A stretch of DNA of 64,000 bases from Candidatus Uhrbacteria bacterium. GTDB taxonomy: Bacteria; Patescibacteriota; Patescibacteriia; UBA9934. Below the pieces are notes generated by a model. That model was not told where the DNA came from and did no database searches. It saw only the letters and a program-made list of their open reading frames with translations. Position 1 is the first letter of the stretch. The number at the start of each line of letters is the position of its first letter. The DNA is taken from positions 151,296 to 215,295 of the forward strand of contig CAWGHH010000001.1 of NCBI GenBank assembly GCA_963822405.1, read 5' to 3'. Positions 3,053 through 56,757 of this stretch are shown piece by piece. Both the position numbers and the translations under genes were made by a program.

Positions 3053-3055
3053 TTT

Positions 3056-3122
3056 TTCCTCCTTGCACTTTTAGATGCAGGTAATCGGCCCCCGTGTGAT
3101 GGGGTATGGTGTGCCGACCGTC
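3056..3122. promoter_or_regulatory. 67-nt conserved 5' leader element, copy 1 (about 5 mismatches against copy 2)
   Basis: ttcctccttgcacttttagatgcaggtaatcggcccccgtgtgatggggtatggtgtgccgaccgtc; carries the RBS and a CCTTGCA...TGCAGG stem adjacent to it. Confidence 0.5.
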
Positions 3123-3336
3123 TCTGATGAGACGGGTTTAACAAATTCGGAGCAAAGTTGCCTCCGACATAAACTCTCCATCATGAAGAATTTGTGTCGA
3201 AGGACGAGGAAGAGCGGTGCATGTGCTCAATTCCTCGCCTACGGGTGCTAATCATGTCCTTGTTGGACTTCACCGCGCAGATGGGGCACGTGTCAGTTTC
3301 TATAGGAGCTGTAGCCCCAGAAACTGACAAAGAAGG

Positions 3337-3561
3337 CTATTCCTGCGTATTGCCGCAGGAAGGGCAGACGCCGACCTTGTCGGCGTTGCCGAAGGCGCCC
3401 AGATGGGCGCCGCAACTCCAGCACGAAACGTCGTGCTGGATGGTCAAAGGGGGGGCGACTATCACCCCCCCACACTCTGGGCACAAGAGAGCCCCTGAGC
3501 CGTGCCTTATCGGCACGACTCCTGCATTGTGCGTGCAGACCGGGCACTGGATGTGATCCAT
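3337..3561 (-). CDS. double zinc-ribbon small protein (74 aa; four CxxC pairs)
   Basis: ATG at 3561 with AGGAGG RBS inside leader copy 2; CPVC, CPEC, CWSC and CPSC motifs. Confidence 0.5.
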   Translation of the reverse strand: MDHIQCPVCTHNAGVVPIRHGSGALLCPECGGVIVAPPLTIQHDVSCWSCGAHLGAFGNADKVGVCPSCGNTQE

Positions 3562-3563
3562 TG

Positions 3564-3630
3564 TTCCTCCTTGCACTTTTAGGTGCAGGTAATCGGCTCC
3601 CGTATGATGGGGTATGGTTTGCCGACCGTC
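3564..3630. promoter_or_regulatory. 67-nt conserved 5' leader element, copy 2
   Basis: Near-identical to 3056-3122; sits immediately upstream of the zinc-ribbon ORF. Confidence 0.5.
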
Positions 3631-4107
3631 CCGGAAGGGGCGGATTTAGGAAATGGTCGAGCGCATCGGTCACACCGACAGCGTAGTGTCCGCGTCGATG
3701 TCGTTGATTAGGACCTCCGTGTCCTGATCCACTACCAGGCCGAGCCTGATGGCGAGTGCAACCTGTTGACAGGTCGCCAACGTCACGAGCCGGGTGCAGC
3801 CGGCGTGGTGATCGAACGAGAATCGACGCCCGGAGGCATCGACCTGGGGCCCTGCACGGCCCCATCGAGCGCGATCGAGTTCACACAGAGGTTCTCGAAG
3901 GAGACGACCTGGCCGAACACGAAGTTGATACGCATGGTGTCCTCACTCCCGGTTTCCGCCGGGTCGGGATTGTCACGGCTTATAACCAGCTTCGAACTTC
4001 CAGGTGTTGACGATCTCTCGTCAGGGGCTGCGGCAGGTCGAGAAACTCGACTAAACCGACTAACGCCTGAACACCTTTCCGTCCAAACTGGCTACTCGCC
4101 AATCAGC

Positions 4108-9919: not shown

Positions 9920-9995
9920 GGGCTGATAGCTCAGTTGGTAGAGCATCTGCTTTGCAAGCAGAGGGTCCGGGGTTCGAGTCCCCGTCAGTCCACCA
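9920..9995 (+). tRNA. tRNA-Ala (anticodon TGC), CCA encoded
   Basis: Cloverleaf folded by hand: GGGCUGA acceptor, anticodon loop CUUUGCAAG, T-arm GGTTCGAGTCC. Confidence 0.9.
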
Positions 9996-10027
9996 AAAAA
10001 CCCACTAAAATCCGCCCTGGCGTTGTC

Positions 10028-10102
10028 GCCGGTCTGCGTTTCTCCTCGACGTACCACAAGTACGTCTCGTCGAAGCCTTGCCGGCTCCTAGCCAGGACGA
10101 AT
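10028..10102 (+). other. GC-rich structured element directly after tRNA-Ala (CCTGGC...GCCAGG outer stem, inner GACGTAC/GTACGTC hairpin) followed by a T-run
   Basis: Stems seen directly; followed by gaattttagagggttttttgtttgtg; could terminate the tRNA transcript or be a small RNA. Confidence 0.25.
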
Positions 10103-10225
10103 TTTAGAGGGTTTTTTGTTTGTGCGGCTTTGCCTCGATTAATCCTGAGATTGACCCTGAGAACGTTGACTTTTTGCTAAATTGGTGCTATTATTTTTGG
10201 TCTTAGCTAAACGACTGGAGGCTGT

Positions 10226-10786: not shown

Positions 10787-10808
10787 GGGCCGACATCGAA
10801 GTCGGCCC
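10787..10808. repeat. REP palindrome copy 1 (GGGCCGAC-ATCGAA-GTCGGCCC); a half-copy at 10833-10848
   Basis: Perfect 8-bp stem with a 6-nt loop, TTACTA tail. Confidence 0.7.
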
Positions 10809-11659: not shown

Positions 11660-11680
11660 GGGCCGACATAGAAGTCGGCG
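11660..11680. repeat. REP copy 2 (degenerate right arm)
   Basis: gggccgacatagaagtcggcg. Confidence 0.6.
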
Positions 11681-11695
11681 AGCAAAGATCTGAAG

Positions 11696-11717
11696 GGGCC
11701 GACATAGAAGTCGGCCC
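11696..11717. repeat. REP copy 3
   Basis: gggccgacatagaagtcggccc plus TTACTAC tail. Confidence 0.7.
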
Positions 11718-11723
11718 TTACTA

Positions 11724-12311
11724 CTAGGTGTCAGTATATATCACTGGGTGGCCGTCGTTCCACCATGTATTTGGGTTGTTGACGATATATTGCCGAATCC
11801 GATCGAGATCACCGTTTGCGCGGGTTATGTGTTCGTAATAATTCGTTTGCCATAATCGCCGATCGTAGTATTTGTGATTGATTTTATGCCATCGAATATA
11901 TTCATTGGTCGAAACCGATTTGAACCATTGCATCACCCGCGGTAAATCCGTCGGCGCCGGCAAATTGTTCGTCGTAGGGGCCGACTTCGATGTCGGCCCT
12001 TTCTCATCAAACATTTCCACAATCCCGTGAAAATGATCCGGCATCACCACGTATTCGTGTAAACGTACATTTGAAAATTTGTTTGGTATGGTTGCCCACC
12101 ATTCGGTGATCATTGAACCGAATGCGGTTAAACGGATGTTGACCAGAGGGCCGACATTGAAGTCGGCCCCTACGCCGCGATTGACGATTACGTCGCCGAA
12201 AATACCGTCGCGGTTGTTTGCGTTTAATGTCACGTAATACAATCCGGGTGTCGAATAATCAAATCCTGGCAATCGTGGATTCTTACGTCCAATTTCTTTC
12301 CATGAAAACAT
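11724..12311 (-). CDS. REP-associated tyrosine transposase (RAYT / TnpA_REP, IS200-like HuH Y1), carrying two in-frame REP insertions
   Basis: HuH motif MPDHFHGIV; Tyr motif RRLWQTNYYEHITRANGDLDRIRQYIVNNP, YafM-like; REP copies 4 and 5 lie inside the ORF without breaking the frame. Confidence 0.8.
   Translation of the reverse strand: MFSWKEIGRKNPRLPGFDYSTPGLYYVTLNANNRDGIFGDVIVNRGVGADFNVGPLVNIRLTAFGSMITEWWATIPNKFSNVRLHEYVVMPDHFHGIVEMFDEKGPTSKSAPTTNNLPAPTDLPRVMQWFKSVSTNEYIRWHKINHKYYDRRLWQTNYYEHITRANGDLDRIRQYIVNNPNTWWNDGHPVIYTDT
11978..11999. repeat. REP copy 4 (inverted orientation, loop TTCGAT) inside the RAYT CDS
   Basis: gggccgacttcgatgtcggccc; translates in-frame as KGPTSKSAPTT. Confidence 0.7.
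12148..12169. repeat. REP copy 5 inside the RAYT CDS
   Basis: gggccgacattgaagtcggccc; translates in-frame as RGVGADFNVGPLV. Confidence 0.7.
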
Positions 12312-12419: not shown

Positions 12420-12441
12420 GGGTCGACATAGAAGTCGACCC
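12420..12441. repeat. REP copy 6 (variant GGGTCGAC arms) abutting the stop codon of the dehydrogenase gene
   Basis: gggtcgacatagaagtcgaccc; gene stop at 12442-12444. Confidence 0.65.
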
Positions 12442-14333: not shown

Positions 14334-15359
14334 CTAGCGAGAGGTAAATATCCGAATCTCATCCATTAACTTCTTGTTCGGCCACTTAGTGAGGAGTCCG
14401 GCTTTTGCCCCAACGTGTTGAATAACGCTTTCGGAGTTGAGCGTGCCGATCTGCAAAGCCTCGTCTACAGTTAATCCTTTCGCTAGAGCTGAGACTACGC
14501 CGGAACCAAATGCGTCACCAGCGCCAGTGGTTGAAATTGGGTGAATGTTTCTGGTTCTGGCCGAGTATTTGATTTTTCCCATCGAGGCATACGCCCCGCG
14601 AGGTCCGTCGGTCACCACGTCGAGTGTAGCGGTCGACTTCGATGTCGACCCTTGCAAGGCCACAGCCAGTTCCTTCCCATCTTTGGTTGACAGTCCCGTC
14701 AGTGTCTGTGCTTCTTCGAGGTTCACAAACAACACGTCGACATCTTTCAGGAGTGGTCGAAGTTCAGATGCCTTTGCAAGCTCGCCTCCACCTGGGTTTA
14801 CGGAAATTTTTGCGCCGGTTTTTTTGGCGTGCGCGATAATTTTTGAAAGTAAGGCAATGTTCCCGGATAGGGAAGACACGTAATACCATTTCGCCGAAAG
14901 GGTTTTGAGTGGCACGTCGGCGAGTGAAAACTCGGCGGAGACACCGCGGTGAACAAGCGCGGTTCGTTCGCCAGTCGGTGCTGTTAGTAGCGTGCTGTAG
15001 GCGGTTTGCCCACCTTTAATGCGCTTGACCATGGTCGCGTCGATCTTGTAGCGAGCGAGATCGCGCAGAACGTCGTCTCCCGGTTCGTCATCACCAACTC
15101 GCGATACGATGCCGGTGACGAAACCGAGATTCGCAAACGTCGCGGCGGCATTCGTTGCTCCACCGCCCGTCGACAGAACCACTTGTTCGACGTCAATCTT
15201 TGTTCCGAGGGCGACACACTCGCCAACGCCAGTAGAAAATTTGTCGGATTTGAGGAGTTGGAATTCTTTCGAAAGTAAAAAGACGTCCCGAACAGCGGAA
15301 CCGATGGTGATGATGTCGTACATATGCCCCCATTCTACACCGCGGCATTTCTTTTCCAA
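14334..15359 (-). CDS. PfkB-family carbohydrate kinase (ribokinase-like) with an in-frame REP insertion
   Basis: TTGAGDAFGSGVVSALAKG signature; REP copy 7 encodes GSTSKSTAT in a loop. Confidence 0.8.
   Translation of the reverse strand: MEKKCRGVEWGHMYDIITIGSAVRDVFLLSKEFQLLKSDKFSTGVGECVALGTKIDVEQVVLSTGGGATNAAATFANLGFVTGIVSRVGDDEPGDDVLRDLARYKIDATMVKRIKGGQTAYSTLLTAPTGERTALVHRGVSAEFSLADVPLKTLSAKWYYVSSLSGNIALLSKIIAHAKKTGAKISVNPGGGELAKASELRPLLKDVDVLFVNLEEAQTLTGLSTKDGKELAVALQGSTSKSTATLDVVTDGPRGAYASMGKIKYSARTRNIHPISTTGAGDAFGSGVVSALAKGLTVDEALQIGTLNSESVIQHVGAKAGLLTKWPNKKLMDEIRIFTSR
14630..14651. repeat. REP copy 7 (GGTCGAC variant, inverted) inside the PfkB CDS
   Basis: cggtcgacttcgatgtcgaccc. Confidence 0.65.
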
Positions 15360-18467: not shown

Positions 18468-18950
18468 ATGATGGCACATATGAAAAAATTACTTATTGGT
18501 TTGTGCGCGGTGACGCTTCTTGGGGCTGGGTGCGCTAGCTCTGATTTAAGCGACGCTACGCATAATAGTGACGGCTCACCATTTGTTCCGGTAGCCCAAG
18601 AACCGGCTAAGCTTGGTCCTCAACCTGGATATCCAGGGGATAATCCAGATGTGACCGTGCAGGGCGAGTGGGCAGGTTTTGTGCTGGCTGTAGCTGACAA
18701 CAAGTCTTGTGACGAAGCTAAACTGTACTTAACCGCGGCTGTCCAACCGGCATTTACGGCTGAGGCATGTAAACAGATGAACGATTACATCATGACCGTG
18801 CCAAGTGTTGATTGGTCGAAAACTGTCACCGCGGCCGATAATAAGAAAGTTACGCTCTACAGCTATAAGGGCGAGTTATTTGCTGAGTACTTACTCGGTG
18901 TAGACGGAGCTTGGTATTTGAACACTCCGGTTTGGGTAGCGAAGTTGTAG
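18468..18950 (+). CDS. putative lipoprotein (160 aa)
   Basis: Signal peptide with lipobox LLGAGCASS. Confidence 0.5.
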   Translation: MMAHMKKLLIGLCAVTLLGAGCASSDLSDATHNSDGSPFVPVAQEPAKLGPQPGYPGDNPDVTVQGEWAGFVLAVADNKSCDEAKLYLTAAVQPAFTAEACKQMNDYIMTVPSVDWSKTVTAADNKKVTLYSYKGELFAEYLLGVDGAWYLNTPVWVAKL

Positions 18951-19031
18951 AAAATAAAAACAGACTAGTCGTCGAAATTTGAGTCGGATTACCTCCTAAA
19001 AATTTCTCTCAACTAGTCTGTTTTTATTTTC
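18950..19031. repeat. Nested-hairpin element copy 1: perfect 20-bp inverted repeat around a 42-nt core, spanning exactly stop to stop of convergent genes
   Basis: Arms gaaaataaaaacagactagt / actagtctgtttttattttc; core contains GAAATTT-gagtcggattacctcctaa-AAATTTC; a 37-nt stretch of this core recurs identically at the second copy (61525-61611). Confidence 0.7.
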
Positions 19032-20038
19032 TACTTTTTGGCGACTGCGTGCTTTTTTAGTTTCATCACTTGACGAACAGCCTTCACGATCCAAGGTGCG
19101 GTTAGCTTGTAGTGTTCTAGTAGCTCGCGCGGTTCGCCGGATTGGCCAAAGGTGTCTTCCATGCCAACGCGTTCGACTGGCACTGGATACGTCTTCGCGA
19201 GGAGCTCGCATACAGCACCGCCAAGTCCACCGGCGGCTTGGGCTTCTTCGACGGTAACAATTGCGCCACACTCTTGAGCTGCGGCAATGACGGTGGCCTC
19301 GTCCATTGGCTTGATACTGACCATGTTGATAACGCGCGCTTCGATTCCTTTCGTTTCGAGCTCTTTAGCCGCGAGCATCGCCTCGTACAATAGGGGGCCA
19401 CAGGCGAGTATGGCAACGTCTGTGCCGGTTTTGTAAACTTCAGCTTTGCCAATGGCGAACGGCGTTTTTTCGGTTGTGAAAACCGGCGTTTTCTCGCGTG
19501 CGAACCGAATGTAGACTGGGCCTTCATGTTTGGCGGCGGCCACAATGGCTTTGCGTGTTTCAATTGCGTCGCACGGTACGAGCACGGTCATGTTAGGCAG
19601 CACGCGCATGATAGCAATGTCTTCTACCATTTGGTGCGTCGCCCCGTCTGGACCAACGGATACACCGGCGTGCGCTCCGGCAATTTTCATGTTTGTATTT
19701 TGAAGACAGGCGGTTGTTCTAATCTGTTCCCAGTTTCTACCGGGGGAGAAGCAGGCATAGCTGACAATAAACGGAACTTTTCCCTGTAGAGCCATGCCAG
19801 CGGCGATAGCGGCGAGTGATTGTTCTGATACGCCCATCTGGACGAACCTTTCTGGGAAAGCGAGTTTGAAAGACTCTACTCTAGTTGACTCAGTTAAGTC
19901 TGCGCACAGAACCATGACATTTGGATCAGCCTGCCCGGCCAGCACTAAGCCCTGCCCAAACCCATCACGGGTTGGAGCCTGGGCAATATCAGCATCAAAG
20001 AGTTTTTTTGTTAGGGCTGCCGAGCGGGGAATAGACAT
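19031..20038 (-). CDS. tkt: transketolase, C-terminal (pyrimidine-binding) subunit
   Basis: Recognisable transketolase C-terminal-half sequence across the whole ORF. Confidence 0.85.
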   Translation of the reverse strand: MSIPRSAALTKKLFDADIAQAPTRDGFGQGLVLAGQADPNVMVLCADLTESTRVESFKLAFPERFVQMGVSEQSLAAIAAGMALQGKVPFIVSYACFSPGRNWEQIRTTACLQNTNMKIAGAHAGVSVGPDGATHQMVEDIAIMRVLPNMTVLVPCDAIETRKAIVAAAKHEGPVYIRFAREKTPVFTTEKTPFAIGKAEVYKTGTDVAILACGPLLYEAMLAAKELETKGIEARVINMVSIKPMDEATVIAAAQECGAIVTVEEAQAAGGLGGAVCELLAKTYPVPVERVGMEDTFGQSGEPRELLEHYKLTAPWIVKAVRQVMKLKKHAVAKK

Positions 20039-32447: not shown

Positions 32448-32490
32448 AGTATAGCAAAAAAACGCCCTTTTGTCAATGTTTTGGGGCTAA
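32448..32490 (-). promoter_or_regulatory. Near-consensus promoter of cassette 2 (TTGACA-N17-TGCTATACT plus conserved upstream TTAGCCCCAAAACA)
   Basis: Minus strand reads TTAGCCCCAAAACATTGACAAAAGGGCGTTTTTTTGCTATACT. Confidence 0.6.
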
Positions 32491-32573: not shown

Positions 32574-33026
32574 TTAGCGCATCTCTTTCTGCGCCCAGTG
32601 TTTTGGCAGTTTGGTGGTTTTCAGGAGCTGTGCGGTTCGTTCGATATCAGCGAGGGGTACATTGTGGATATTGCGAGAGGCGCCGACGTTATTATCACAG
32701 GCGAAGTTCAGGATTTCTACGGTATACCCAAAGTTTCGACCAAGCATGATATACGGCGCAATTTCCCAAGCTTGGGCGTTCATGTTGTCGATGATGATTG
32801 TCGAGTCGCCGTTATGAAGTGCGTCATGGCATTTTTTGAAGCAGGCATCATGGGCGAGCTGGATTTTGGACTTGTCGTAGACGTATGTTCCGTCAGTTTG
32901 TAAGAAAAAATCATCTGCGGAGCAGATAACAGCGTCAGTTTGGGATTTCGCGTAAGTAGATTTGCCTGAGCCAGGAATACCGCGGAGAATTTGGAGAGAT
33001 TTCATATGGGGTAGGGGTCGACCCAT
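32574..33026 (-). CDS. P-loop kinase-like small protein (AAA_33 / zeta-toxin-like NTPase fold)
   Basis: Walker A GIPGSGKST; about 150 aa; start is 33026 or 33005. Confidence 0.55.
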   Translation of the reverse strand: MGRPLPHMKSLQILRGIPGSGKSTYAKSQTDAVICSADDFFLQTDGTYVYDKSKIQLAHDACFKKCHDALHNGDSTIIIDNMNAQAWEIAPYIMLGRNFGYTVEILNFACDNNVGASRNIHNVPLADIERTAQLLKTTKLPKHWAQKEMR

Positions 33027-33066
33027 GCGTCGACCCTTTCCGGAATTTTATGTAAGATGTGTTTGT

Positions 33067-36986: not shown

Positions 36987-37015
36987 AGTATAGCAAAAAA
37001 TCTGACTTCTGTCAA
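36987..37015 (-). promoter_or_regulatory. Near-consensus promoter for the orphan transcript
   Basis: Minus strand reads TTGACAGAAGTCAGATTTTTTGCTATACT. Confidence 0.55.
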
Positions 37016-47184: not shown

Positions 47185-47213
47185 AGTATAGCAAAAATAG
47201 GCGAATATGTAAA
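47185..47213 (-). promoter_or_regulatory. rnpB promoter, TTTACA-N17-TGCTATACT
   Basis: Minus strand reads TTTACATATTCGCCTATTTTTGCTATACT; predicted start coincides with the P1 5' end. Confidence 0.55.
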
Positions 47214-56713: not shown

Positions 56714-56757
56714 TATACAAAACAAAAATCCCTCGAATTTACTCGAGGGATTTTTTG

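What the first reader, a model, noticed from the sequence alone, without database searches (positions are those of the whole stretch)
18950..19031. A conserved 37-nt core nested inside two different perfect long inverted repeats, each filling a convergent intergenic gap exactly
Copy 1 at 18950-19031 has 20-bp arms. Copy 2 at 61525-61611 has 23-bp arms. The two sets of arms are unrelated in sequence. Both contain the identical 37 nt GAGAAATTTTTAGGAGGTAATCCGACTCAAATTTCGA, in opposite orientation. The core forms an inner hairpin, GAAATTT...AAATTTC. Both copies lie exactly between the stop codons of convergent genes, with the outer arms touching the stops. A plain bidirectional terminator does not need a conserved loop. 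A MITE conserves its terminal repeats and varies the interior, which is the opposite of what is seen here. So either a small mobile unit targets terminator hairpin loops, or this is a conserved functional RNA or protein-binding module presented on a terminator stem.
Basis: seen in the sequence. Interest (0 to 1): 0.8.

Follow-up and report, generated by a model that had tools for sequence, protein, structure and literature searches.

The report
Conserved-tip hairpin repeat at gene ends
Two long hairpins between convergent genes of this Patescibacteria (candidate phyla radiation) genome share an identical tip, and relatives carry the same hairpins at the same places with matched base-pair changes, so this is a real and apparently undescribed family of small structured repeat elements, most likely terminator hairpins with a conserved docking module.

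Summary
An identical 37-mer sits in opposite orientation inside two perfect 23-bp inverted repeats with unrelated arms, in two convergent gene gaps.

It is not a two-copy oddity. I found 13 sequences at 8 genomic sites in at least 5 related Patescibacteria genomes or populations. All share a near-invariant 19-nt cap, UUAGGAGGUAAUCCGACUC. The inner and outer stems covary: 18 of 22 pairs change on both sides and 91% of cells are paired.

Both window copies have positional orthologues in relatives whose flanking proteins are 83-89% identical. At site 2 the interior is flipped relative to a close relative. One copy is a whole 67-nt hairpin inserted in frame in riboflavin synthase.

The unit is therefore the whole hairpin, inherited vertically and occasionally duplicated. 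It is not a 37-nt core that jumps into terminator loops. G·U wobbles and conserved tandem G·A pairs point to the GGAGG strand as the folded strand.

The best reading is a SPRITE/REP/RPE-like structured element. It would serve as a bidirectional terminator or 3'-end hairpin, with a conserved cap that probably docks a factor. That function is inferred.

There is no match in Rfam, phages, plasmids, viral contigs or the literature. I rate it a new variant of a known kind, with moderate interest.

The parts
18947..19034 (-). Copy 1, whole hairpin. The GGAGG ('sense') strand is the - strand, which is the strand of the transketolase C-terminal gene.
   Evidence: RNA fold gives -44.6 kcal/mol on the - strand (z = -11.1) and -39.4 on the + strand. 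Model R1 scores it 70.1 bits.
18947..18969 (.). Copy 1 left outer arm, 23 bp perfect. It contains the TAG stop of the + gene at 18948-18950.
19012..19034 (.). Copy 1 right outer arm, 23 bp perfect. It contains the stop of the - gene at 19031-19033.
18972..19008 (-). Copy 1 shared 37-mer. It comprises a tandem G·A junction (GA...GA), the inner helix GAAATTT/AAATTTC and the 19-nt cap.
18981..18999 (-). Copy 1 19-nt cap, TTAGGAGGTAATCCGACTC. Predicted pairs are A3-U18, G4-C17, G5·A16, A6·G15, G7-C14 and G8-C13, closing a UAAU tetraloop.
61525..61611 (+). Copy 2, whole hairpin. The GGAGG strand is the + strand, which is the strand of the membrane-protein gene 60748-61512.
   Evidence: RNA fold gives -55.4 kcal/mol on the + strand (z = -10.6) and -45.1 on the - strand. 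Model R1 scores it 78.3 bits.
61525..61547 (.). Copy 2 left outer arm, 23 bp. It begins 12 nt after the stop codon at 61510-61512.
61589..61611 (.). Copy 2 right outer arm, 23 bp. It abuts the stop of the - gene at 61612-61614.
61550..61586 (+). Copy 2 shared 37-mer. G61550·A61586 and A61551·G61585 form the tandem G·A junction. The inner helix is 61552-61558 paired with 61578-61584.
61559..61577 (+). Copy 2 19-nt cap.
18468..18950 (+). Flanking gene of copy 1: a 160-aa protein with a signal-peptide or lipoprotein-like N-terminus and no Pfam hit.
   Evidence: A gene of similar size lies convergent to tktC in L014-L016.
19031..20038 (-). Flanking gene of copy 1: the transketolase C-terminal subunit.
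   Evidence: Pfam PF02779, PF02780.
60748..61512 (+). Flanking gene of copy 2: a 254-aa membrane protein directly after an ECF-type sigma factor gene. No Pfam hit.
   Evidence: The same sigma-factor and membrane-protein pair is seen in L020 and L023.
61612..62940 (-). Flanking gene of copy 2: tRNA nucleotidyltransferase (CCA-adding enzyme family).
   Evidence: PF01743.
56724..56755 (.). Comparison object, not a family member. This is an ordinary bidirectional terminator in another convergent gap, AAAAATCCCTCGA-ATTTAC-TCGAGGGATTTTT. It shows what arms of this type look like with a small loop.
   Evidence: Model R1 gives only a weak hit, 15.7 bits.

Best explanation
The two sites belong to a small family of hairpin elements, 70-90 nt long, restricted to one clade of Patescibacteria (Uhrbacteria-like).

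Shown here:
- The unit is the whole hairpin. It has a fast-evolving outer stem whose two sides change together. At convergent gene ends this stem has the A-tract, GC core and T-tract of a bidirectional intrinsic terminator.
- Next comes a purine junction, usually tandem G·A/A·G.
- Then a 5-8-bp, mostly A/U, inner helix that covaries.
- Then a UU/C internal loop.
- Then a near-invariant cap: A-U (or G-C), G-C, tandem G·A/A·G, G-C, G-C and a UAAU-type tetraloop.
- Copies are inherited vertically at the same gene junctions in genomes whose flanking proteins are 83-89% identical.
- Copies are occasionally duplicated or inserted as whole hairpins, once in frame in ribE.
- The asymmetric interior can be inverted between the two arms.

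Inferred:
- The element works as single-stranded nucleic acid, most likely as RNA on the GGAGG strand.
- It forms a long rod hairpin at the 3' ends of convergent transcripts, where it terminates transcription and/or blocks 3' exonucleases.
- The invariant cap is kept because it docks a trans-acting factor. This could be a protein, or the 16S 3' tail through GGAGGU.
- Like REP and SPRITE elements, it may be both mobile and useful to the host.
For: Family and structure:
- A genome scan for the 19-nt cap found 6 hairpins in MAG GCA_964348985.1 and one chance hit in a coding sequence.
- Orthologue look-ups added L012, L015, L016, L020 and L023.
- On the ungapped 11-sequence alignment A3, 91.3% of cells pair. 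The slid controls give 34-52%. 18 of 22 pairs change on both sides, and 0 of 500 shuffles reach any measure.
The other cap changes fall in the tetraloop or at the unpaired position 19.
- The tandem G·A in the cap is present in 13 of 13 sequences.

Strand:
- The in-register copies show 7 G·U and 0 A·C cells.
- The GGAGG strand folds 5.5-9.5 kcal/mol better in the 8 of the 11 copies folded that carry the exact cap.

Vertical descent:
- At site 1, the hairpins and flanking gene ends align between the window and L015/L016 (A4). The tktC proteins are 88-89% identical.
- At site 2, the arms align between the window, L023 and L020 (A5). The CCA enzymes are 83% identical.

Terminator-like context:
- Five of the 8 sites are convergent gaps.
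- The arms match the form of an ordinary bidirectional terminator at 56724-56755.

Mobility of the whole hairpin:
- The ribE copy adds 21-22 codons, roughly the 67-nt hairpin. It is absent from the homologues P0003 and P0004.
- L006 and L008 are about 90% identical over 77 nt.
Against: - No expression or 3'-end data exist for these organisms.
- One copy (L008, between adk and map) has the GGAGG strand antisense to the operon.
- The site-2 interior is flipped in the window relative to L023 and L020. Orientation relative to a particular gene is therefore not constrained.
- The ribE copies cannot be terminators.
- The relative closest by tktC (L014, 92%) has an unrelated spacer at site 1, so the element is dispensable there.
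- For L012, L015 and L016 the antisense strand folds slightly better within the 99-nt windows used.
- Matched changes on both arms of a DNA palindrome can also arise from templated correction of quasi-palindromes, without any selection on RNA (general knowledge).
- The simple terminator scan does not call either copy, because the interior exceeds its 3-8-nt loop limit.
- The copy number seen is low: 2 in 64 kb, and no extra copies in about 325 kb of related loci.
Confidence: 0.5

Rival explanations
1. The family is a selfish, non-autonomous DNA palindrome of the REP/REPIN or MITE type. The hairpin would form in single-stranded DNA and be recognised, through its invariant cap, by a transposase or nuclease encoded elsewhere in the genome. 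Copies would persist at gene ends because insertion there is harmless. The stems would stay perfect through templated correction of the palindrome, not through selection on RNA.
For: - A whole hairpin is inserted in frame in ribE and is absent from close homologues.
- Paralogous copies share their arms (L006, L008 and L009).
- The interior is flipped at site 2.
- One copy is antisense to an operon (L008).
- The element is lost or replaced at site 1 in L014.
- The same window holds other small hairpin-repeat families.
- G·T and G·A pairs are also tolerated in DNA hairpins (general knowledge).
Against: - No transposase was looked for or found. Only 64 kb of this genome is available.
- No target-site duplication is visible at the ribE insertion.
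- Both window copies are old positional orthologues, not recent insertions.
- Known REPs and MITEs conserve their stems or terminal repeats and vary the interior. The pattern here is the reverse.
- The copy number is low.
Confidence: 0.27
2. A 37-45-nt module, consisting of the cap, the inner helix and the G·A junction, moves or is copied by gene conversion into the loops of pre-existing terminator hairpins. The arms are then local and the core is shared.
For: - w1 and w2 are identical over 37 nt but unrelated outside that stretch.
- L003 and L005 share a 45-nt core, with one compensated pair, on unrelated arms.
- The core of L020 at site 2 differs from L003 by a single compensated pair (2 nt). 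It is visibly less like its positional orthologues w2 and L023 (read directly from the sequences).
- The arms look like ordinary bidirectional terminators.
- One genome (GCA_041659765.1) carries both cap variants, in L015 and L020.
Against: - The ribE insertion carries its own arms inside a coding sequence, where no terminator hairpin pre-existed.
- L006, L008 and L009 share arm sequence.
- At site 1 the core and the arms have diverged to a similar extent between orthologues, as expected for descent of the whole hairpin.
- No empty hairpin was found at an orthologous site. The sites without the element have unrelated spacers or a different gene order.
Confidence: 0.12
3. The shared 37-mer is a chance duplication or an assembly artefact.
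For: None beyond the low copy number in the window.
Against: - 0.00 matches are expected by chance.
- Independent assemblies from several samples contain the hairpins.
- Covariation extends across 13 sequences.
Confidence: 0.01

Closest known systems
[quoted passage not shown]
   Same: SPRITE is a dispersed repeat of about 100 nt. [quoted passage not shown]
   Different: There is no sequence relationship, and the host phylum is different. Here the tip of the hairpin is conserved while the stems vary and covary, and the copy number seen is low.
REP / BIME / REPIN elements of Proteobacteria
   Same: These are short extragenic palindromes, often found between convergent genes. They affect mRNA stability and bind host proteins, and they are probably mobilised in trans (PMC3184786).
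   Different: REPs are 20-40 nt long and conserve the stem sequence (for example the 5' GTAG). They occur in hundreds of copies and are linked to RAYT genes. Here the stem sequence is not conserved, and no RAYT link was tested.
Rickettsia palindromic elements (RPE)
   Same: RPEs are palindromic repeats that can sit in frame inside protein-coding genes without destroying them (PMC10969869). The 67-nt hairpin in ribE of L009 and L012 behaves in the same way.
   Different: RPEs are 100-150 bp long and mostly intragenic, and they are confined to Rickettsia. Here only 1 of the 8 sites is intragenic.
Ordinary bidirectional intrinsic terminator
   Same: The outer arms consist of an A-tract, a GC-rich core and a T-tract between convergent stops, as at 56724-56755 in this window.
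   Different: The hairpin interior is a conserved 41-42-nt structured extension instead of a 3-8-nt loop. Family members also occur where termination would be harmful, inside ribE and within the adk-map operon.
Structured ncRNA motifs with conserved terminal loops (for example TwoAYGGAY, Rfam RF01731)
   Same: Both are multi-copy hairpins in which the loop sequence is conserved and the stems covary.
   Different: No Rfam model matches. Unlike those motifs, these hairpins overlap stop codons and occur in both orientations.

Membership tests
REP/REPIN | A conserved stem sequence shared by all copies (for example a 5' GTAG and a conserved palindrome). | tested here: not met
   The outer and inner stems differ between copies and covary. 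Only the cap is conserved.
REP/REPIN | Association with a RAYT (Y1 transposase) gene flanked by the repeats. | not tested
   Only 64 kb of the genome is available, and no systematic protein-family scan of the window was made.
REP/REPIN | High copy number, from tens to hundreds per genome. | tested here: inconclusive
   There are 2 copies in 64 kb. MAG GCA_964348985.1 has 6 copies with the exact cap. No extra copies were found in about 325 kb of loci. The genomes could not be scanned in full.
MITE | Conserved terminal inverted repeats, flanking target-site duplications and a related full-length IS. | tested here: not met
   The termini are not conserved between copies. No direct repeat is visible at the ribE insertion boundaries. 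No larger element carrying the same ends was seen.
Rickettsia palindromic elements | In-frame insertion of a palindromic repeat into protein-coding genes. | tested here: met
   ribE of L009 and L012 carries the hairpin in frame. The homologues P0003 and P0004 lack it. This is a behavioural resemblance only, seen at one site.
Rickettsia palindromic elements | Sequence membership in one of the RPE families, with a Rickettsia host. | tested here: not met
   The host is Patescibacteria according to the source names of the best protein hits. The element is 70-90 nt long, compared with 100-150 bp for RPEs.
SPRITE-like terminator repeat | [quoted passage not shown] | tested here: met
   Five of the 8 sites are convergent gaps, and the arms carry A and T tracts. 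The sample is small, and no genome-wide statistic was possible.
Intrinsic terminator | A GC-rich stem with a short loop followed by a U-tract, and actual termination in vivo. | tested here: inconclusive
   The arms have the right form, but the simple scan, which allows loops of 3-8 nt, calls neither copy. It does call the control at 56724-56755. Termination itself cannot be tested with these tools.
Any Rfam 15 family | A score at or above the family's gathering threshold. | tested here: not met
   At gathering thresholds only tRNAs are found. E-value scans give generic long-hairpin (miRNA precursor) matches of 11-36 bits, against gathering scores of 47-245.
Kink-turn | A three-nucleotide bulge followed directly by tandem sheared G·A pairs. 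| tested here: not met
   Both tandem G·A motifs are symmetric internal loops with no 3-nt bulge.
Conserved structured RNA (generic) | Compensatory base-pair changes across independent sequences that exceed the controls. | tested here: met
   18 of 22 pairs change on both sides, the covariation score is 0.743 against 0.227 in shuffles, and the slid controls give at most 0.173. Caveats: DNA palindromes can mimic this signal, and the sequences include paralogues and orthologues.

The most novel reading that the evidence does not exclude
The invariant cap would be an exchangeable module with a trans-acting partner. In this reading, a 37-45-nt unit is copied between otherwise unrelated terminator hairpins by homing or gene conversion into hairpin tips, with no terminal repeats or target duplications. 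Its GGAGGU-containing cap matches 12 of 14 positions of the complement of the canonical bacterial 16S 3' tail. It would dock the small ribosomal subunit, or a dedicated protein, at mRNA 3' ends in a genome whose genes show no Shine-Dalgarno motifs.
Probability: 0.12. Interest if true: 0.8.

Novelty: new variant of a known kind. Interest (0 to 1): 0.55.

Why it matters
Patescibacteria have tiny genomes with very little non-coding DNA. A structured element kept at the same gene junctions across species is therefore unlikely to be neutral filler.

The family has an unusual conservation pattern, with an invariant tip, covarying stems and two conserved tandem G·A motifs. That pattern gives a concrete, testable RNA or DNA recognition module in an uncultured phylum where almost no regulatory RNAs or terminator features are known.

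The family also shows three things:
- RPE-like in-frame insertion of palindromes occurs outside Rickettsia.
- The interior of a gene-end palindrome can flip, which matters when reading orientation in such elements.
- Short-read assemblies break at these hairpins.

If the cap does dock the ribosome or a protein, it would point to a 3'-end mechanism specific to this clade.

Tried and rejected
Searches that found nothing relevant:
- Rfam at gathering threshold on the window and on 12 loci gave only tRNAs.
- Rfam E-value scans of both sites gave only generic miRNA-hairpin noise.
- The metagenome scan for the exact 19-mer gave two chance hits in coding sequence with no hairpin. This scan would miss cap variants such as those in L012, L015 and L016.
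- The viral contig scan with a degenerate cap found nothing.
- BLAST against phages and plasmids found nothing.
- Full-text search for the cap sequence returned no papers.
- CPR and hairpin literature searches found nothing relevant.
- Model R1 run over about 325 kb of related loci found no diverged extra copies.

Readings considered and rejected:
- Ribosome-binding site for a downstream ORF. There is no start codon at a suitable distance after AGGAGG, and the genes here show no Shine-Dalgarno motifs. AGGAGGT is neither enriched nor depleted in the window.
- DNA uptake sequence. The density is far too low.
- Kink-turn. There is no 3-nt bulge.
- Hammerhead ribozyme in the CTGATGAG-containing repeat at 3053-3654. 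Rfam finds no match.

I tried to find a 16S gene in the fetched loci, to test complementarity with the cap, and found none. The more distant relative L024/L025 (CCA enzyme 58% identical) has another gene in place of the convergent gap and no element.

Full report
**Observation.** The 37-mer GAGAAATTTTTAGGAGGTAATCCGACTCAAATTTCGA occurs exactly twice in the window, at 18972-19008 on the - strand and at 61550-61586 on the + strand. No further match appears with up to 3 mismatches, and none is expected by chance.

Each copy lies inside a perfect inverted repeat. Copy 1 has 23-bp arms at 18947-18969 and 19012-19034. These arms contain the stop codons of both convergent genes. Copy 2 has 23-bp arms at 61525-61547 and 61589-61611. 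Its right arm abuts the stop of the CCA-enzyme gene, and its left arm starts 12 nt after the stop of the upstream + gene.

The whole hairpins fold far better than shuffled sequence (z = -8 to -11). The 41-42-nt core alone does not (z about -1).

An independent Logan assembly of run ERR12037365 contains both gene ends with the arm-core junctions. Its contigs stop inside the repeated core, as expected for a repeat longer than the assembler's k-mer (inference). The structure is therefore real.

**The organism.** The window's own transketolase and CCA-enzyme proteins lie on a 366-kb contig. The named best homologues are Patescibacteria and Candidatus Uhrbacteria. None of the 42 long ORFs I inspected has a Shine-Dalgarno motif upstream.

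**More copies.**
- A scan of species-representative genomes for the 19-nt centre TTAGGAGGTAATCCGACTC found six hairpins in one MAG, plus one chance match inside a coding sequence.
- That MAG is GCA_964348985.1 (CAYGEQ01). It is labelled Gammaproteobacteria, but its transketolase is 86% identical to the window's and the gene order is the same.
- In those six hairpins the 19-mer is constant by ascertainment, but the helix next to it differs and stays complementary: GGAAATG/CATTTCC, GGCTG/CAGCC, AAAATTTG/CAAATTTT and GAAATT/AATTTC. The outer arms also differ.
- The same exact-19-mer scan of metagenome contigs gave only two chance hits in coding sequence.
- A degenerate scan of viral contigs gave nothing.

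**Orthologues of copy 1.** I looked up the contigs that encode the closest transketolase homologues.
- Two relatives, L015 (GCA_041659765.1, 88% identity) and L016 (89%), carry a homologous hairpin in the same convergent gap. The flanking gene ends align (A4).
- Their cap differs at three positions. A3 to G and U18 to C form a compensating pair in the helix that RNAfold predicts inside the 'loop'. U12 to C lies in the tetraloop.
- The relative closest by transketolase (L014, 92%) has an unrelated 102-nt spacer instead.
- The CAYGEQ01 lineage lacks both the convergent gene and the hairpin.

**Orthologues of copy 2.**
- L020 (GCA_041659765.1) and L023 (a JGI contig from the same metagenome as L014) carry the hairpin between the CCA-enzyme gene and the convergent membrane-protein gene. 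Their CCA enzymes are 83% identical to the window's.
- L023 has nearly the same arms as the window, with compensated changes. Its interior is identical except for one base, but the window's interior is the exact reverse complement with respect to the flanking genes (A5).
- The interior has therefore been inverted between the arms since these lineages split. The opposite orientation of the two window copies carries no special meaning.
- A more distant relative (CCA enzyme 58% identical) has another gene in that position and no element.

**A copy inside a gene.**
- In CAYGEQ01 one hairpin lies in frame inside riboflavin synthase.
- The protein alignment A1 shows about 21 extra residues, QNVHENLLGGNPTPNFQEHS and neighbours, that are absent from homologues with 66-67% identity (P0003, P0004).
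- The extra residues are present at the same place in P0002 (L012). There the cap differs by one tetraloop base and the outer stem is different but still complementary.
- Codon by codon, the gain of 21-22 codons roughly matches the 67-nt hairpin including its 13-bp arms. The inserted unit is therefore the whole hairpin.
- Only three of the six reading frames through the cap are open (read directly from the sequence).

**Structure.**
- On the ungapped alignment of 11 copies (A3) I tested this structure: outer stem, 2-nt junction, 7-bp inner helix, UU/C internal loop, two pairs, G·A/A·G, two pairs, tetraloop.
- It gives 91.3% paired cells, against 34-52% when the partner columns are slid.
- 18 of 22 pairs change on both sides. 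The covariation score is 0.743 against 0.227 in shuffles, and 0 of 500 shuffles reach any measure.
- With L020 and L023 added, the cap's tandem G·A/A·G is present in 13 of 13 sequences.
- The basal junction is G·A/A·G in 8 of 13.
- In the 11 copies that are in register there are 7 G·U cells and no A·C cell.
- The strand carrying GGAGG folds 5.5-9.5 kcal/mol better than its complement in the 8 of the 11 copies folded that have the exact cap. The complement is slightly better for L012, L015 and L016.
- Together these results point to a structure formed by one particular strand of single-stranded nucleic acid. They cannot separate RNA from single-stranded DNA.

**Context.**
- The 13 sequences occupy 8 genomic sites.
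- Five sites are convergent gaps: tktC/lipoprotein-like gene, CCA enzyme/membrane protein, L27/CTP synthase, AAA ATPase/upstream ORF, and L003.
- Two sites lie between co-directional genes. At MurA/M50 peptidase the GGAGG strand is in the mRNA. At adk/map the GGAGG strand is antisense.
- One site is intragenic.
- The outer arms at the convergent sites have an A-tract, a GC core and a T-tract. An ordinary bidirectional terminator with a 6-nt loop in another convergent gap of the window, 56724-56755, has the same form and is called by the simple scan on both strands.
- The two copies themselves are not called, because their interior exceeds the scan's loop limit.

**What the unit is.** Three observations show that whole hairpins are copied and inherited:
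- L006 and L008 are about 90% identical over 77 nt, arms included, and share arm sequence with the ribE copy L009.
- The ribE insertion brought its own arms.
- At site 1 the core and the arms have diverged to a similar degree between orthologues.

Against this, w1/w2 and L003/L005 have near-identical cores on unrelated arms. The site-2 core of L020 also resembles L003 and L005 more than its positional orthologues. Some exchange or conversion of the core between copies remains possible.

**Comparison with known systems.**
- No Rfam family reaches threshold. E-value scans give only generic long-hairpin matches far below the gathering scores.
- There is no similarity to phage or plasmid records.
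- No paper in the searchable library contains the cap sequence.
- The nearest known kinds are the pneumococcal SPRITE repeat (terminator-like, biased to convergent 3' ends), REP/BIME elements, and Rickettsia palindromic elements (in-frame insertion), as described in PMC3184786 and PMC10969869.
- The family fails the defining sequence features of REPs and MITEs, which are conserved stems or terminal repeats and target duplications. It differs from all of them in conserving the tip and varying the stems.

**Mechanism.** I commit to the following, and mark it as inference. [quoted passage not shown] The invariant cap is retained as a docking site for a trans-acting partner.

The cap contains GGAGGU and matches 12 of 14 positions of the complement of the canonical bacterial 16S 3' tail. 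This rests on my own knowledge of that tail. The clade's own 16S could not be retrieved.

The main rival is a selfish DNA palindrome mobilised in trans. The two readings are not exclusive, as REP and SPRITE elements illustrate.

**Verdict.**
- The 'mobile unit targeting terminator loops' alternative is mostly not supported.
- The family is a new variant of a known kind of element, of moderate interest.

Noticed in passing
window 10787-10808, 11660-11681, 11696-11717, 11978-11999, 12148-12169, 12420-12441, 14630-14651 (and a weaker match at 33015-33036): This is a second, REP-like hairpin family, GGGYCGAC-N6-GTCGRCCC, often followed by TTACTA. Seven copies lie within 4 kb. The stem covaries (C-G versus T-A), and the 6-nt loop occurs in both orientations (ATCGAA and TTCGAT). 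Some copies fall inside long ORFs that may not be genes.
   Followed up: partly
window 29999-30045 and 32011-32058: A third repeated hairpin, GAAGAACCGCACCG..GAGGAGC...GCTCTTCGGGGTGCGGT, occupies two different convergent gaps 2 kb apart.
   Followed up: partly
window 9994-10118: A long inverted repeat begins directly after a tRNA gene (9920-9992). Its arms are 28 nt long and 89% complementary, with 69 nt between them.
   Followed up: no
window 3053-3146 and 3561-3654: A 94-nt direct repeat, 86% identical, contains a small hairpin with CTGATGAG. No hammerhead or any other Rfam match is found at E <= 0.1.
   Followed up: partly
window 31119-31147, 32448-32476, 36987-37015, 47185-47213: A repeated 29-mer reads, on the opposite strand, TTGACAAAAGGGCGTTTTTTTGCTATACT. 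That is a near-consensus -35/-10 promoter with a 17-nt spacer, reused upstream of several genes.
   Followed up: no
window, 25 nt upstream of 42 long ORFs: There are no Shine-Dalgarno-like motifs upstream of the start codons. The upstream regions are A/T-rich. AGGAGGT occurs 6 times in the window, as expected by chance, and two of those are the hairpin caps.
   Followed up: partly
proteins P0005, P0006, P0007, P0009, P0010, P0012 (alignment A1): Riboflavin synthases of other Patescibacteria carry different insertions of 4-25 residues, at the same loop and at a second site around alignment columns 57-85. These may be other in-frame palindromic insertions. Their DNA was not examined.
   Followed up: no
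L003-L006, L008, L009, L018 (GCA_964348985.1, CAYGEQ01): This MAG is titled 'uncultured Gammaproteobacteria', but the closest source-named homologue of its riboflavin synthase is from a Patescibacteria bacterium, its transketolase is 86% identical to the window's, and the gene order around tktC matches the window's clade.
   Followed up: partly
L014 9780-9881: At the position of copy 1, the relative closest by tktC has an unrelated 102-nt spacer. It carries repeated GCAGATT/AATCTGC motifs and its own terminator-like hairpin, GAAAATCGC...GCGATTTTC.
   Followed up: partly
L001 end (4060), L002 end (4379), L021 end (4427): Logan unitig assemblies end inside the hairpin core at both window sites and at the L020 site. 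These elements fragment short-read assemblies of this clade.
   Followed up: yes
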